In this document: in pieces, positions 19,986 to 24,626 of the stretch
How the letters are laid out: each line of letters starts with the position of its first letter
Position numbering within the stretch: the first letter of the stretch is position 1
Origin: Escherichia phage P1723
Length of the DNA stretch: 40,282 bases
Strand: one strand, 5' to 3'
Sequence record: MT465573
Made by a program: the position numbers and the translations under genes
The notes under the pieces: generated by a model
Database searches by the model: none
What the model saw: only the letters and a program-made list of their open reading frames with translations
What the model was told of the DNA's origin: nothing

Positions 19986-21608
19986 ATGGCTACTCAAAAG
20001 CGTGAAGGGTTTGCAGCTAACGGGGCCAAGACGGTTTATGACCGATTGAGCAACGACCGCGCACCTTATATCACTCGTGCGGAGAACTGTGCGGTAGTAA
20101 CGATTCCCTCGTTGTTCCCTAAGGACTCCGACAACTCGTCTACCGATTATGCTACTCCGTGGCAGTCCGTAGGTGCCCGAGGGTTAAACAACCTAGCGTC
20201 CAAGTTGATGCTGGCCTTGTTCCCGATGCAGACGTGGATGAAGCTGACCATTAGTGAATATGAAGCTAAGCAGCTACTCGAAGACCCAGCGGCACTCGCT
20301 AAGGTTGACGAGGGTCTCTCGATGGTCGAGCGTGTCATCATGAACTACATGGAATCCAATAGTTACCGAGTGACTCTCTTTGAGGCACTAAAGCAACTGG
20401 TGGTATCCGGTAACACACTGCTCTTCCTGCCCGATCCTGAGTCTGGTAAGTATAACCCTATGAAGCTCTACAGGTTGGGTGCTTACGTTGTTCAACGAGA
20501 TGCCTACGGTAACGTATTGCAAATCGTAACACGCGACCAGATTGCGTTTGGTGCCCTTCCTGAGGATGTCCGTAAGACTGTGGTGGCTAACAGCGGTGAC
20601 AAGGAAGGTGAAGAGGTAATCGACGTGTATACTCACATCTACCTTGACGACGAATCTGGTGACTTCTTGAAGTACGAAGAGGTTGATGGAGTCGAACTCG
20701 ATGGGACCGATGCACAATACCCAACGACTGCCTGTCCGTATATTCCGATTCGAATGGTACGCATCGACGGTGAGTCTTATGGTCGATCCTATTGTGAAGA
20801 GTATCTGGGAGACCTCAAGTCCCTAGAGAATATCCAAGAGGCTATCATTAAGTTCGCTATGATTAGCTCCAAGGTAATCGGTCTGGTAAACCCAGCAGGT
20901 ATCACACAGCCTCGTCGTCTCACAAAGGCGGCTACTGGTGACTACGTTCCGGGTATTCGTGCAGACATTGACTTCCTGCAACTTGAGAAGACTGCCGACT
21001 TTACGATTGCCAAGAGTATTGCCGACCAGATTGAAGGTCGCTTGTCGTTTGCCTTTATGCTTAACAGTGCGGTTCAACGTACTGGCGAGCGAGTGACTGC
21101 CGAAGAGATTCGATACGTTGCGTCTGAACTAGAAGATACCTTAGGTGGTGTCTATTCTATTCTGTCTCAGGAACTCCAATTGCCTCTGGTACGAGTCTTA
21201 TTGACTCAACTTCAAGCTACGCAACAGATTCCTGAGTTACCTGCCGAAGCCGTAGAGCCGACCATTAGTACTGGTCTGGAAGCTATTGGTCGCGGTCAGG
21301 ACATGAATAAGATTGAGCAGTTCATCAACGCATGTGCTGGCCTTGGCGCTCTCGCTCAGGACCCGGACCTCAACCTGTACAACCTTAAGCTGCGCATTGC
21401 GAACTCTATTGGTCTGGATACCACAGGTCTCCTTATGTCCGAAGAAGAGAAGCAAGCTGCTATGGCTCAACGTGGTATGGAAACGGCTACTCAAAGTATG
21501 GCTGCTGCTGGTGGCGCTGGTATGGCTCAACAGGCTACCGCAAGTCCAGAGGCGATGGCTAACGCTGCCGACACTGTAGGGATGCAACCGGGAATGCCGG
21601 GAGCGTAA
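19986..21608 (+). CDS. 8: Portal (head-tail connector) protein, gene 8
   Basis: 540 aa; long stretches identical to T7 gp8 (PWQSVGARGLNNLASKLMLALFPMQTWMKLTISEYEAKQLL; VQRTGERVTAEEIRYVASELEDTLGGVYSILSQELQLPLVRVLL). Confidence 0.97.
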   Translation: MATQKREGFAANGAKTVYDRLSNDRAPYITRAENCAVVTIPSLFPKDSDNSSTDYATPWQSVGARGLNNLASKLMLALFPMQTWMKLTISEYEAKQLLEDPAALAKVDEGLSMVERVIMNYMESNSYRVTLFEALKQLVVSGNTLLFLPDPESGKYNPMKLYRLGAYVVQRDAYGNVLQIVTRDQIAFGALPEDVRKTVVANSGDKEGEEVIDVYTHIYLDDESGDFLKYEEVDGVELDGTDAQYPTTACPYIPIRMVRIDGESYGRSYCEEYLGDLKSLENIQEAIIKFAMISSKVIGLVNPAGITQPRRLTKAATGDYVPGIRADIDFLQLEKTADFTIAKSIADQIEGRLSFAFMLNSAVQRTGERVTAEEIRYVASELEDTLGGVYSILSQELQLPLVRVLLTQLQATQQIPELPAEAVEPTISTGLEAIGRGQDMNKIEQFINACAGLGALAQDPDLNLYNLKLRIANSIGLDTTGLLMSEEEKQAAMAQRGMETATQSMAAAGGAGMAQQATASPEAMANAADTVGMQPGMPGA

Positions 21609-21717: not shown

Positions 21718-22641
21718 ATGGCTGAATCAAATGCTGACGTTTATGCGTCATTGGGTGTTAACAATGCGGTTATGTCAAGTAACAACATTGAGGAGCACCG
21801 ACAGAACATGTTGGAGATGGACGTTGCGGTACGTGATGGCGATGACTCTATTGAGCTTGACCAGAACGAACCAGACCTCTATCAGTCTGGCGATAAGTTT
21901 GCTTCAGAAGCAGATGAGAGCCGGATGCAGGTTCGAGTAAACGCTGAGAATGGTGAGACAACCGTTGACGGTGAAAGCACTGAGCAGACCCCTGAGGGCA
22001 CTGATGGTGAAGACGGTGAGTTTACGCCTCTGGGTGAAGTCCCAAGCGAACTAGTCGAATCATCTGAGCTGCTGGGTCAGCACGAAGAGGGCTTCCAAGA
22101 GATGGTCAATCAGGCTGCTGAGCGTGGTTTGCCTATCGAGTCCATTGCGCGTATTCAAGAAGAATATCAAGGTGATGGTCTCACGGATGCAACCTATGAG
22201 GAACTGGCTGCTGCTGGCTACTCTAAGGCTTTCGTTGACAGTTACATCAAGGGACAGGAAGCTCTCGTTGAGGGCTACGTGTCTCAGATTCGTGACCTCG
22301 CTGGCGGTGCTGAGCAGTTCGACAAGTTGATTACCCACATGGAAACCAACGACCCGGACGGCTTTGAGTCTCTCCAAGAGGCCATTATGCGCCGCGATTT
22401 GGGAACCGTTAAGGCCCTCCTGAATGCTACGGGCCAATCCCGCGCTAAGCGTTTCGGTAAACCTGCCGAACGTTCAGTGACCACTCGTGCCACTCCGAGT
22501 AAGGCCGTTACCGCTAAGGTAGAAGGCTTCGAGACACAGGCAGATATGGTCAAGGCGATGTCAGATAGCCGCTACCGCTCAGACGCAAAGTACCGCAATG
22601 AGGTAGCCGCTAAGGTTGCTGCAAGTAACTTCCATTGGTAA
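21718..22641 (+). CDS. 9: Capsid assembly (scaffolding) protein, gene 9
   Basis: 307 aa, highly acidic, same size and position as T7 gp9; AAAGGAG RBS. Confidence 0.9.
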   Translation: MAESNADVYASLGVNNAVMSSNNIEEHRQNMLEMDVAVRDGDDSIELDQNEPDLYQSGDKFASEADESRMQVRVNAENGETTVDGESTEQTPEGTDGEDGEFTPLGEVPSELVESSELLGQHEEGFQEMVNQAAERGLPIESIARIQEEYQGDGLTDATYEELAAAGYSKAFVDSYIKGQEALVEGYVSQIRDLAGGAEQFDKLITHMETNDPDGFESLQEAIMRRDLGTVKALLNATGQSRAKRFGKPAERSVTTRATPSKAVTAKVEGFETQADMVKAMSDSRYRSDAKYRNEVAAKVAASNFHW

Positions 22642-22773: not shown

Positions 22774-23814
22774 ATGGCAAACGCAACTGGTGGACAGCAG
22801 ATTGGTACTAACCAAGGTAAAGGTCAATCCGCAGCAGACAAACTGGCTCTGTTCCTGAAGGTATTCGCAGGTGAAGTACTGACCGCGTTTACTCGTGCAT
22901 CCGTGACCGCTAACCGACATATGGTTCGCTCCATTGCTTCCGGTAAATCCGCGCAGTTCCCTGTGCTGGGTCGTACTCGTGCAGCCTATCTGCAACCGGG
23001 TGAGAACCTAGACGATAAACGTAAAGACATCAAGCACACCGAGAAGGTCATCAACATTGACGGTCTCCTGACTGCTGACGTTCTGATTTACGACATCGAA
23101 GACGCAATGAACCACTATGACGTTTCCGCTGAGTACACCGCACAGCTCGGTGAATCTCTGGCGATGGCTGCTGATGGCTCCGTTCTGGCTGAAGCTGCGG
23201 CTCTGTGTAACCTGCCAGCGGCCTCTGATGAGAACATCGCGGGTCTGGGTAAGCCGTCCGTACTGACTCTGGAAGGTGGCCTGAAAGACGCTCTGGAAGC
23301 TGACTCCGTGGCTCTGGGTAAAGCCCTGATTGCTGGCCTGACTCAGGCTCGCGCTAAGCTGACCTCCAACTACGTACCTGCTGGTGACCGCGTGTTCTAC
23401 ACCAAGCCGGAGTACTACTCTGCGATTCTGGCGGCCCTGATGCCTAACGCTGCTAACTATGCTGCGCTGATTGACCCGGAAACTGGTTCTATCCGTAACG
23501 TAATGGGCTTCGAGGTTGTCGAGGTTCCGCACTTCACCGCAGGTGGTGCAGGTGACGATAAGGACGATGCTCCGACCAACCAGAAACACGCATTCCCGGC
23601 TACCTCTAGCTCTACCGTTAAGGTTGCTGAGGATAACGTGGCTGGCCTGTTCCATCACCGTTCTGCGGTTGGTACTGTGAAGCTGCGTGATTTGGCTCTG
23701 GAACGTGCTCGTCGTGCCGAGTATCAGGCTGACCAGATTATCGCTAAGTACGCGATGGGTCACGGCGGTCTGCGCCCAGAAGCTGCTGGTGCACTGGTTT
23801 TCAAACTGGTGTAA
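22774..23814 (+). CDS. 10: Major capsid protein 10A
   Basis: 346 aa; MANATGGQQIGTNQGKG...KLALFLKVFAGEVLTAF...NHYDV...AKYAMGHGGLRPEAAGALVFKLV near-identical to T7 gp10A; AAGGAGA RBS. Confidence 0.98.
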   Translation: MANATGGQQIGTNQGKGQSAADKLALFLKVFAGEVLTAFTRASVTANRHMVRSIASGKSAQFPVLGRTRAAYLQPGENLDDKRKDIKHTEKVINIDGLLTADVLIYDIEDAMNHYDVSAEYTAQLGESLAMAADGSVLAEAAALCNLPAASDENIAGLGKPSVLTLEGGLKDALEADSVALGKALIAGLTQARAKLTSNYVPAGDRVFYTKPEYYSAILAALMPNAANYAALIDPETGSIRNVMGFEVVEVPHFTAGGAGDDKDDAPTNQKHAFPATSSSTVKVAEDNVAGLFHHRSAVGTVKLRDLALERARRAEYQADQIIAKYAMGHGGLRPEAAGALVFKLV

Positions 23815-23969
23815 CTCCAAGTCCTCCTCCGGTCCAATTCAGTGCTCTAATGGCTGATGCACCGGAGGTTGTCGTTGAGGAGCTTACGCCACAACAGAAA
23901 GCCGCTCGCACTCGTGCTGCAAACAGGGCTGCTAAGGCCGCTCTGGAGGCTGGCGAAACGACTAACTAA
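22774..23969 (+). CDS. 10: Minor capsid protein 10B by programmed -1 frameshift (predicted)
   Basis: Slippery G GTT TTC at 23796-23802, 4 codons before the 10A stop; the -1 frame is open for 55 codons to TAA at 23967-23969, giving a 398-aa product. Confidence 0.55.
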
Positions 23970-23973
23970 CAGA

Positions 23974-24014
23974 AACCCCTTGGGTGTCCTTCGGGATGCT
24001 TGAGGGGTTTTTTG
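23974..24014 (+). terminator. Tphi-like terminator for phage RNAP
   Basis: AACCCCTTGGGTGTCCTTCGGGATGCTTGAGGGGTTTTTTG: GC-rich hairpin plus U-run; same AACCCCTTGGG...CTTGAGGGGTTTTTTG frame as T7 Tphi. Confidence 0.85.
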
Positions 24015-24035
24015 CTTGACAACAGGAGGTGCTTT

Positions 24036-24626
24036 ATGCGCGCTTTTGATATGAACGTTGAGACAGTAGCTGAGCTGTACGCTGTGAATGACATTCTGGC
24101 TGCTATCGGTGAACCTCCAGTCTCTACCCTTGAGGGTGACGCTAACGCTGATGTAGCGAACGCCCGTCGAGTCCTCGATAAGATTAACCGTCAGGTTCAA
24201 TCACGAGGCTGGACATTTAACATTGAGGAAGGTGCTGTACTGATGCCAGATGCTTTCAGTAAACTAATTGTCTACAGCGACGACTTCCTTTCGATATTCC
24301 AAGAGGGGTCTGCGACTCCTTACGTTAACCGTGGTGGTTACGTTTATGACCGTGTGAACAAGACCGACAGGTTCGACAATAGCATCACAGTTACAATGAT
24401 TAAACTTCGTGACTACGATGAGATGCCTGAGTGTTTCCGAACGTACATCGTGACCAAGGCTGCTCGTCGATTCAACAGTTCATTCTTTGGGGCCGCTGAG
24501 GTTGAGGCTATGCTGGCAGATGAGGAGCTGGAGGCCCGTCAGATGTGCATGGAGTACGAAATGGATTACGGTGTCTACAACATGCTGGATGGCGATACGT
24601 TCGTTCAGGGTCAGATTAGCCGATAA
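24036..24626 (+). CDS. 11: Tail tubular protein A, gene 11
   Basis: [39 protein letters not shown]... near-identical to T7 gp11; ATG at 24036 with GGAGG RBS (tool ORF starts at a TTG inside the terminator). Confidence 0.95.

What the first reader, a model, noticed from the sequence alone, without database searches (positions are those of the whole stretch)
23796..23969. Conserved -1 programmed frameshift site giving capsid 10B
G GTT TTC lies four codons before the 10A stop, and the -1 frame stays open for 55 further codons to a TAA at 23967, just before the Tphi hairpin. The predicted 398-aa product has the same length as T7 gp10B. The tool ORF track does not show the extension because it has no start codon of its own.
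Basis: partly seen in the sequence, partly recalled or inferred. Interest (0 to 1): 0.45.

Follow-up and report, generated by a model that had tools for sequence, protein, structure and literature searches.

The report
T7-type capsid gene 10 frameshift site
This is the well-known T7-type ribosomal slip near the end of the major capsid gene, which makes a minority of longer capsid subunits (10B); it is real and conserved here, but ordinary, and the closest database record mislabels it as a separate small gene.

Summary
The window is a complete T7-like phage genome (genus Foetvirus, about 97% identical to Escherichia phage SRT7). The capsid gene 10A is at 22774..23814. It carries G GTT TTC at 23796-23802 in the X XXY YYZ register. 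The -1 frame is open from there to a TAA at 23967-23969, 6 nt before the CCCC of the Tphi terminator. The fusion product is 398 aa, the same length as T7 gp10B.

All 85 related gene-10 loci have an in-register slippery heptamer near the 10A stop: 73 GGTTTTC, 6 one-base variants and 6 CCCAAAG (T3-like). All but one have a long -1 frame behind it. The distal block of the extension, LTPxQKAARTRAANKAxK, is shared with T7. It varies almost only at third positions of the -1 frame, so it is a translated protein. It has no conserved start codon, and the ATG at 23850 has no Shine-Dalgarno sequence.

One addition is inferred, not shown: a very stable stem-loop (23807-23891, extendable to 23795-23904) starts 5 nt after the heptamer and could stimulate the slip.

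This is a new member of a known kind and of low interest. SRT7 records and two PHROG families treat the extension as a stand-alone 39-aa "head protein", which is probably an annotation artefact.

The parts
22774..23814 (+). Gene 10A, major capsid protein (346 aa), zero frame
   Evidence: ORF. Pfam Gp10A-like 2e-104 over residues 61-342. PDB T7 gp10A 2xvr 1.8e-164.
23796..23802 (+). Slippery heptamer G GTT TTC (Val342-Phe343), site of the -1 shift
   Evidence: Only + strand copy in the window. An in-register heptamer is present in all 85 related loci; 73 are GGTTTTC. It is identical to the T7 site (PMC5009743).
23799..23969 (+). -1 frame extension of 10B (56 codons plus TAA). 10B = join(22774..23799, 23799..23969), 398 aa
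   Evidence: The -1 frame is open 37-92 codons past the 10A stop in 84 of 85 relatives, against 2-17 codons for the +1 frame.
23883..23936 (+). Conserved block of the extension, LTPQQKAARTRAANRAAK, predicted helix
   Evidence: Alignment of 34 unique extensions with third-position-only variation. phrog_12582 at 6e-11. Single-sequence AF2 predicts a helix at extension residues 32-54 with block-mean pLDDT 91-93 over residues 31-50.
23807..23891 (+). Predicted stem-loop starting 5 nt after the heptamer. Lower stem 23807-23818 pairs with 23879-23882 and 23884-23891; it includes the 10A stop and the L-T-P codons. Upper stem 23826-23833 pairs with 23861-23868. Candidate frameshift stimulator (inferred).
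   Evidence: The 90 nt after the heptamer (23803-23892) fold at -37.5 kcal/mol, against 52 same-length windows inside 10A with mean -23.4, sd 5.0 and best -33.9. Arm duplex -16.2 kcal/mol, matched by 0 of 200 shuffles (value from the SRT7 row, whose two arm segments are identical to the window's). Pair probabilities 0.93-1.0.
23795..23904 (+). Outer extension of the same hairpin: UGGUUUUC (23795-23802) pairs with GAAAGCCG (23897-23904, in the Q-K-A-A codons)
   Evidence: Pair probabilities 0.80-1.0. The same pairing is predicted in 18 of 37 unique relatives, including T7. Function unknown.
23971..24013 (+). Tphi-type terminator hairpin and U run. CCCC at 23976-23979 pairs with GGGG at 24004-24007
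   Evidence: MFE -27.2 kcal/mol, z = -5.6. AACCCCTTGGG...TGAGGGGTTTTT is invariant in the window, T7, PPWS4, CR44b and T3. The CCCC of the T7 terminator is implicated in gene 10 frameshifting (PMC5009743).
23850..23969 (+). 39-aa ORF in the -1 frame, annotated as a separate 'head protein' (gp12) in SRT7. It is most likely just the distal part of 10B.
   Evidence: There is no Shine-Dalgarno sequence upstream, whereas gene 10 has GAAGGAG and gene 11 has AGGAGGT, and the ATG is not conserved in relatives.

Best explanation
Most ribosomes translating the late gene 10 mRNA read GTT TTC AAA CTG GTG TAA and release the 346-aa major capsid protein 10A. A minority slip back one base on G GUU UUC (23796-23802). 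The A-site tRNA-Phe re-pairs perfectly from UUC to UUU, and the P-site tRNA-Val re-pairs partly from GUU to GGU. These ribosomes then read 55 more codons in the -1 frame to the TAA at 23967. The product is a 398-aa minor capsid protein 10B: the complete 10A fold up to Val342, then a proline-rich linker, then a conserved basic helix (LTPQQKAARTRAANRAAK).

Shown here: the anatomy of the site, its orthology to T7 gene 10, and purifying selection on the -1 frame.

Inferred: (i) that the shift happens in this phage, and at a T7-like level (about 10% in T7); (ii) that the 85-nt stem-loop starting 5 nt after the heptamer, and/or the conserved Tphi element, stimulates the shift; (iii) that the extension sits on the capsid exterior, as the C terminus of T7 gp10 does. 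Point (iii) rests on established knowledge of T7 display systems and was not tested here.
For: The heptamer is in register and identical to T7's. An in-register slippery heptamer lies near the 10A stop in all 85 related loci. The -1 frame is long and the +1 frame short in relatives. The extension is homologous to that of T7 10B, and its conserved block varies essentially only at third positions; mean entropy by codon position is 0.67, 0.74 and 1.25. All 8 differences from SRT7 across 10A and the extension are synonymous in the proposed frames. No start codon is conserved, and the ATG at 23850 has no Shine-Dalgarno sequence. The Pfam capsid domain ends at the slip codon. The 10B stop lies 5-16 nt before Tphi in nearly all heptamer-type relatives, whatever the extension length. 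The T7, T3 and CR44b records annotate the same -1 shift. Literature: the T7 site and terminator effect (PMC5009743), about 10% efficiency in T7 (PMC1635266), and MS proof in Kvp1 at TTTTCA (PMC2579914). For a local stimulator.
Against: There are no protein or ribosome data for this phage. The open frame alone is not improbable, since 10.5% of shuffles stay open. Synonymous-site fixation of GTT and TTC is only modest evidence: 3 of 17 conserved Val columns and 6 of 9 Phe columns are equally fixed in this highly expressed gene.

The proposed lower stem is absent or weak in T7 itself and in CR44b. Swapping arms between lineages barely changes the duplex energy (-9.5 kcal/mol native against -8.8 swapped). 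So it is not a family-wide, demonstrably co-evolving element. The closest records annotate a separate 39-aa gene instead.
Confidence: 0.9

Rival explanations
1. The distal part of the -1 frame (ATG 23850 to TAA 23969) is an independent gene for a 39-aa 'head protein', as annotated in the SRT7 records, and no frameshift is involved.
For: the ORF listing shows the ORF. GenBank and RefSeq SRT7 annotate it as gp12, and PPWS4 annotates an equivalent ORF38. The only hit in the large protein collection is this 39-aa protein. PHROG families phrog_12582 and phrog_20538 are named 'head protein'.
Against: No Shine-Dalgarno-like sequence precedes the ATG at 23850, while genes 10 and 11 have strong ones. 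Of 34 unique homologous extensions, 16 have no ATG before the conserved block, and where an ATG exists its position differs. The frame is kept open all the way back to the heptamer in 84 of 85 relatives. T7 and Kvp1 are shown experimentally to make the fused product.
Confidence: 0.04
2. The site and extension are an inherited relic. The frame is open but frameshifting is negligible in this phage, so 10B is not a functional product here.
For: 10B is dispensable in T7 (established knowledge, not tested here). One relative (L013) has a truncated extension of 15 codons. The open frame alone is not statistically unusual.
Against: The heptamer, the register, the open frame and the protein-level constraint on the extension persist across relatives whose 10A proteins are only ~76-83% identical to the window's (about 79% nucleotide identity). 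The only window-versus-SRT7 change in the extension is synonymous in the -1 frame.
Confidence: 0.04
3. 10B arises from transcriptional slippage of the phage RNA polymerase on the T run, which would produce a fraction of -1 mRNAs, rather than from ribosomal slippage.
For: The site contains a T4 run, and transcriptional slippage is a known alternative route to transframe products (PMC5009743).
Against: Four T residues are far shorter than the runs known to support polymerase slippage (established knowledge). What is conserved is a heptamer in a fixed codon register in all 85 loci, which matters to ribosomes and not to polymerases. The T3-like alternative, C CCA AAG, is a classical tRNA-Lys shift site.
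Confidence: 0.02

Closest known systems
Bacteriophage T7 gene 10 -1 programmed ribosomal frameshift (10A/10B; Condron, Atkins and Gesteland 1991, cited through PMC5009743 and PMC1635266)
   Same: The gene is orthologous. The heptamer G GUU UUC is identical, in the same register, and followed by three sense codons before the 10A stop in both. Both give a 398-aa product. Both extensions carry the LTPxQxAARTRAAN(K/R)A block. Both have a Tphi terminator with the CCCC motif a few nt after the 10B stop.
   Different: The first ~30 residues of the extension are unrelated: a Pro-rich TPSPPPVQFSALMADAPEVVV here against MLGVASTVAASPEEASVTSTEE in T7. The window has a strong predicted stem-loop whose base starts 5 nt after the heptamer and pairs the 10A stop with the L-T-P codons. 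T7 lacks that lower stem (duplex -4.4 kcal/mol, no better than shuffles). Efficiency here is unknown.
Kluyvera phage Kvp1 and Yersinia phage phiA1122 capsid frameshift at poly-U (PMC2579914)
   Same: The slip is of the same Phe/poly-U class (TTTTCA), and in Kvp1 it is confirmed by mass spectrometry of a 10B band.
   Different: They belong to different genera, and their extensions were not compared directly here.
T3 / phiYeO3-12 gene 10 frameshift at C CCA AAG with an Ig-like extension
   Same: It occupies the same position at the end of 10A, shifts in the same -1 direction, and yields the same kind of product: a capsid subunit with a C-terminal add-on.
   Different: The heptamer differs (a Lys site), and the extension is a different, longer module of 85-92 codons. 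The T3 extension matches Pfam Big_2 at 4.5e-10.
E. coli dnaX and IS911-type bacterial -1 frameshift signals (heptamer plus 3' stem-loop)
   Same: Both have a heptamer followed after a short spacer by a stable stem-loop. Here the spacer is 4 nt and the predicted hairpin is 85 nt.
   Different: No upstream Shine-Dalgarno-like stimulator at the dnaX spacing was found by eye. The role of the stem-loop here is untested and is not conserved in all relatives.

Membership tests
T7-type gene 10 -1 PRF (10A/10B) | The host gene is the T7-like major capsid gene 10 | tested here: met
   Pfam Gp10A-like 2e-104. PDB T7 gp10A 1.8e-164. T7 gene order across the window.
T7-type gene 10 -1 PRF (10A/10B) | Slippery heptamer G GUU UUC in X XXY YYZ register a few codons before the 10A stop | tested here: met
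   23796-23802 is in register, with TTC the fourth sense codon before the TAA. It is identical to T7. A heptamer is in register in all 85 relatives.
T7-type gene 10 -1 PRF (10A/10B) | The -1 frame is open from the slip site and ends just before Tphi | tested here: met
   Open 23748-23966 with TAA at 23967, and CCCC of Tphi 6 nt later.
T7-type gene 10 -1 PRF (10A/10B) | The extension is homologous to known 10B extensions and under protein-level selection in the -1 frame | tested here: met
   Shared LTPxQKAARTRAANKA block, with entropy concentrated at third codon positions. phrog_12582 at 6e-11.
T7-type gene 10 -1 PRF (10A/10B) | The extension has no independent translation start | tested here: met
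   No Shine-Dalgarno sequence before the ATG at 23850. The ATG is absent in 16 of 34 homologues and variable in position in the rest. This is sequence evidence only.
T7-type gene 10 -1 PRF (10A/10B) | 3' stimulatory element in the terminator region (CCCC of Tphi in T7) | tested here: inconclusive
   The sequence is present and invariant. Its distance from the heptamer varies from 140 to 432 nt among relatives. Its function cannot be tested in silico.
T7-type gene 10 -1 PRF (10A/10B) | A 10B protein is actually made (about 10% of gene 10 product in T7) and incorporated into capsids | not testable with these tools
   Needs SDS-PAGE and MS of virions or a reporter assay. It has been shown for T7 and Kvp1 only.
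Canonical heptamer plus 3' stem-loop bacterial PRF signal | A stable structure starts about 4-9 nt after the heptamer and is supported by covariation | tested here: inconclusive
   In the window it starts at +5 and is very stable. The only close relative differs by one loop base. Across lineages the region is more structured than the rest of gene 10 (median rank 0.038 in 66 loci), but T7 and CR44b lack the lower stem and arm swapping shows no clear co-evolution. A different hairpin in KP32-like relatives has 2 compensatory pairs.

The most novel reading that the evidence does not exclude
In this lineage, and in about half of the short-extension relatives, the slip site, the 10A stop codon and the codons of the conserved LTPxQKAA block belong to one long hairpin (23795-23904). 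If that hairpin is the local cis-stimulator or tuner of gene 10 frameshifting, part of the conservation of the 10B 'protein' block would be RNA-level. It would also offer a concrete, testable handle on the long-unexplained dependence of T7 gene 10 frameshifting on distant 3' sequence.
Probability: 0.2. Interest if true: 0.45.

Novelty: new member of a known kind. Interest (0 to 1): 0.17.

Why it matters
The main value is correct annotation. This phage and its closest relative SRT7 should carry a joined 10B CDS, join(22774..23799, 23799..23969) in window coordinates. The 39-aa "head protein" genes and the PHROG families built from such fragments are probably artefacts.

There is also a minor mechanistic point. 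The window has an unusually strong stem-loop at canonical spacing from the heptamer. That makes it a cleaner system than T7 for asking which 3' RNA elements drive gene 10 frameshifting. The comparison also shows that one conserved slip site serves as a docking point for at least three unrelated C-terminal capsid add-ons.

Tried and rejected
1. tblastn of the 57-aa extension against the phage collection, and the search of the large protein collection, found only SRT7. A short, low-complexity query is too weak for this, so I switched to locus-based comparison.

2. Rfam has no family covering 23600-24150.

3. No PDB chain includes a 10B extension.

4. The original Condron 1991 papers are not held in the library. 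They are cited only through reviews.

5. Synonymous-site fixation of GTT and TTC as proof of an RNA-level constraint was rejected as weak, because other Val and Phe codons in this gene are equally fixed.

6. A family-wide co-evolving lower stem was rejected. T7 and CR44b lack it, and the arm-swap control is nearly as good as the native pairing.

Only the -1 frame peptide was folded, from a single sequence, which carries little information.

8. The count of GGGG runs near the slip site had an indexing error and is not used.

9. I looked by eye for other slippery motifs between 23748 and 23811 and saw none.

Full report
**What the window is.** The 40,282-base window is a complete T7-like genome. 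All large ORFs lie on the + strand in T7 order: an 882-aa ORF in the T7 RNA-polymerase position, then a 540-aa ORF (19986..21608), a 307-aa ORF (21718..22641) and the 346-aa capsid gene, then the tail-tube genes. In the matching SRT7 record the 540- and 307-aa genes are annotated as head-tail adaptor (portal) and head-assembly (scaffold) protein. Its closest record is Escherichia phage SRT7 (genus Foetvirus, subfamily Studiervirinae). Identity is 99.4% over the gene 10 region and 97.4% over the first 25 kb.

**Checking the observation.**
- Gene 10A is 22774..23814, 346 aa.
- GGTTTTC lies at 23796-23802 and reads G|GTT|TTC in the zero frame. It is followed by AAA CTG GTG TAA.
- It is the only + strand copy in the window.
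- The -1 frame is open from 23748 to 23966 and stops at the TAA at 23967-69.
- Translating from 23796 gives GFQTGVTPSPPPVQFSALMADAPEVVVEELTPQQKAARTRAANRAAKAALEAGETTN*.
- Joining 22774..23799 with 23799..23969 gives 398 aa. T7 10B (341 + 57) is also 398 aa.
- A strong hairpin with a U run follows at 23971-24013, with MFE -27.2 kcal/mol and z = -5.6.

One detail needs correcting. The ORF list does show the last 39 codons of the extension, as an ORF starting at the ATG at 23850.

**Is it more than chance?** The open frame alone is weak evidence, because 10.5% of shuffles of those 168 nt stay open. The -1 frame inside 10A, however, is broken by 36 stops. Its longest open run is 19 codons, and none of 268 windows of 56 codons is open. 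The decisive evidence is comparative.

**Comparative evidence.** I collected 80 related gene-10 loci from IMG/VR and added T7, T3, PPWS4, CR44b and SRT7.
- All 85 loci in which 10A could be delimited have a slippery heptamer in X XXY YYZ register within the last 2-8 codons of 10A. The counts are GGTTTTC 73, AGTTTTC 3, CGTTTTC 2, GGTTTTA 1 and CCCAAAG 6, the last in T3-like phages.
- In 84 of 85, the -1 frame runs 37-92 codons past the 10A stop. The +1 frame runs only 2-17 codons.
- The extensions fall into three kinds:
  - a short type, in 42 loci including T7 and the window, ending in LTPxQKAARTRAANKAxK;
  - a T3-like type of 85-92 codons, whose T3 representative matches Pfam Big_2 at 4.5e-10;
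  - a type of about 90 aa in 37 loci, matching phrog_7473.
- Among 34 unique short-type sequences, codon positions 1 and 2 of the -1 frame in the conserved block are almost invariant. Position 3 has about 1.0-1.9 bits of entropy. Over all well-aligned columns the means are 0.67, 0.74 and 1.25. This is the signature of a translated, selected protein in the -1 frame.
- All eight differences between the window and SRT7 in 10A plus the extension are synonymous in the proposed frames.

**The stand-alone ORF alternative.** The SRT7 and PPWS4 records annotate a separate small "head protein". Two PHROG families, phrog_12582 and phrog_20538, are evidently built from such calls. One published genome, AP5, lists 10B as a 4.3 kDa ORF (PMC4283147).

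The sequence does not support independent initiation. The ATG at 23850 is preceded by CGGTCCAATTCAGTGCTCTA, which has no Shine-Dalgarno match, whereas gene 10 has GAAGGAG and gene 11 has AGGAGGT. Of the 34 homologous extensions, 16 have no ATG before the conserved block, and where an ATG is present its position differs. The T7, T3 and CR44b records annotate the joined -1 product.

**Literature.**
- T7 uses G_GU U_UUC, and a CCCC in the transcription terminator more than 200 nt downstream affects the shift. The review calls this effect unexplained (PMC5009743).
- The shift occurs in about 10% of translations in T7 (PMC1635266).
- In Kvp1, mass spectrometry identified 10B made by a -1 shift at TTTTCA. 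That paper contrasts Phe-type sites with the Lys-type sites of T3 and phiYeO3-12 (PMC2579914).

**Mechanism.** Shown here: the anatomy, the orthology and the selection on the -1 frame. Inferred: tandem or A-site slippage on G GUU UUC. tRNA-Phe re-pairs fully from UUC to UUU. tRNA-Val re-pairs at two of three positions from GUU to GGU. The first base of the heptamer is A or C in five relatives, which suggests that P-site re-pairing is not critical.

**Possible stimulators.** The Tphi element AACCCCTTGGG...TGAGGGGTTTTT is invariant in the window, T7, PPWS4, CR44b and T3. It follows the 10B stop by 5-16 nt in nearly all heptamer-type relatives, regardless of extension length. Its distance from the heptamer therefore ranges from 140 to more than 300 nt.

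The window also has a strong local structure.
- The lower stem pairs 23807-23818 with 23879-23882 and 23884-23891. It contains the 10A stop and the L-T-P codons.
- The upper stem pairs 23826-23833 with 23861-23868.
- The first pair is 5 nt after the heptamer.
- Pair probabilities are 0.93-1.0.
- The 90 nt after the heptamer fold at -37.5 kcal/mol. The 52 same-length windows inside 10A have mean -23.4, sd 5.0 and best -33.9.
- The two arms alone give -16.2 kcal/mol, matched by none of 200 shuffles; this figure is from the SRT7 row, whose two arm segments are identical to the window's.

Across 66 unique relatives, the region after the slip site is generally more structured than the rest of gene 10, with a median rank of 0.038. 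A different hairpin in the ~90-aa-extension group is 98.9% paired and has two compensatory pairs.

The specific lower stem, however, is absent in T7 and CR44b, and swapping arms between lineages costs little energy. I therefore treat the stem-loop as a plausible stimulator for this lineage, not as an established feature of the family.

The hairpin can extend outward. The heptamer itself (23795-23802) pairs with GAAAGCCG in the Q-K-A-A codons (23897-23904). The same pairing is predicted in 18 of 37 relatives, including T7. Its meaning is unknown.

**The product.** The Pfam capsid domain ends at residue 342, the slip codon. No solved structure contains a 10B extension. A single-sequence AF2 model of the extension gives an unstructured first 31 residues and one helix at residues 32-54 (block-mean pLDDT 91-93 over residues 31-50). 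This carries little information but agrees with the sequence, which is a Pro-rich linker followed by a basic, Ala-rich segment. What the conserved helix does is not known.

**Verdict.** This is an orthologous new member of the textbook T7 gene 10 frameshift. Interest is low, apart from the annotation correction and the testable stem-loop.

Noticed in passing
window 23795-23904: The slippery heptamer is predicted to pair with GAAAGCCG in the Q-K-A-A codons about 95 nt downstream. This forms the base of a ~110-nt hairpin with pair probabilities of 0.8-1.0. The same heptamer-to-QKAA pairing is predicted in 18 of 37 unique relatives, including T7.
   Followed up: partly
window 23850-23969; L001 2577-2696; L002 2556-2708: The distal part of the 10B extension is annotated as a separate small 'head protein' in SRT7 and PPWS4. 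PHROG families phrog_12582 and phrog_20538 appear to be built from such fragments. A published genome (AP5) lists 10B as a 4.3 kDa ORF.
   Followed up: yes
L005, L007-L011 (T3-like); L020, L030 and 35 others (KP32-like): The same slip position carries three unrelated C-terminal modules in different relatives. They are the short basic helix, a T3-like extension behind C CCA AAG (the T3 one matches Pfam Big_2), and a ~90-aa module matching phrog_7473 with no Pfam match.
   Followed up: partly
A1 columns 27-69 (e.g. L030 2240-2282): The KP32-like relatives have a conserved 18-pair hairpin about 20 nt after the heptamer. It is 98.9% paired and has two compensatory pairs (AU/GC and CG/UA) that coincide with amino-acid changes in the extension.
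   Followed up: partly
L013 (about 2226-2290): One relative has a premature stop that truncates the extension 15 codons after the 10A stop, before the conserved LTP block. It is a natural 10B truncation.
   Followed up: no
81 loci, 10B stop to Tphi: The 10B stop lies 5-16 nt upstream of the CCCCTTGGG of Tphi in nearly all heptamer-type relatives, whether the extension is 138 or 294 nt long. T3-like loci have 41-163 nt.
   Followed up: partly
L004 1198-1208 and T7-like loci L024-L029, L041, L055, L081: In the T7 group an ATG overlaps the 10A stop (GGAGTAATG) in the -1 frame, with a GGAG just upstream. This arrangement could in principle allow termination-reinitiation. The window lacks it.
   Followed up: no
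window 23008-23820 (- strand): A 270-aa antisense ORF lies inside gene 10A. It was not examined further and is probably a by-product of the codon bias of the capsid gene.
   Followed up: no
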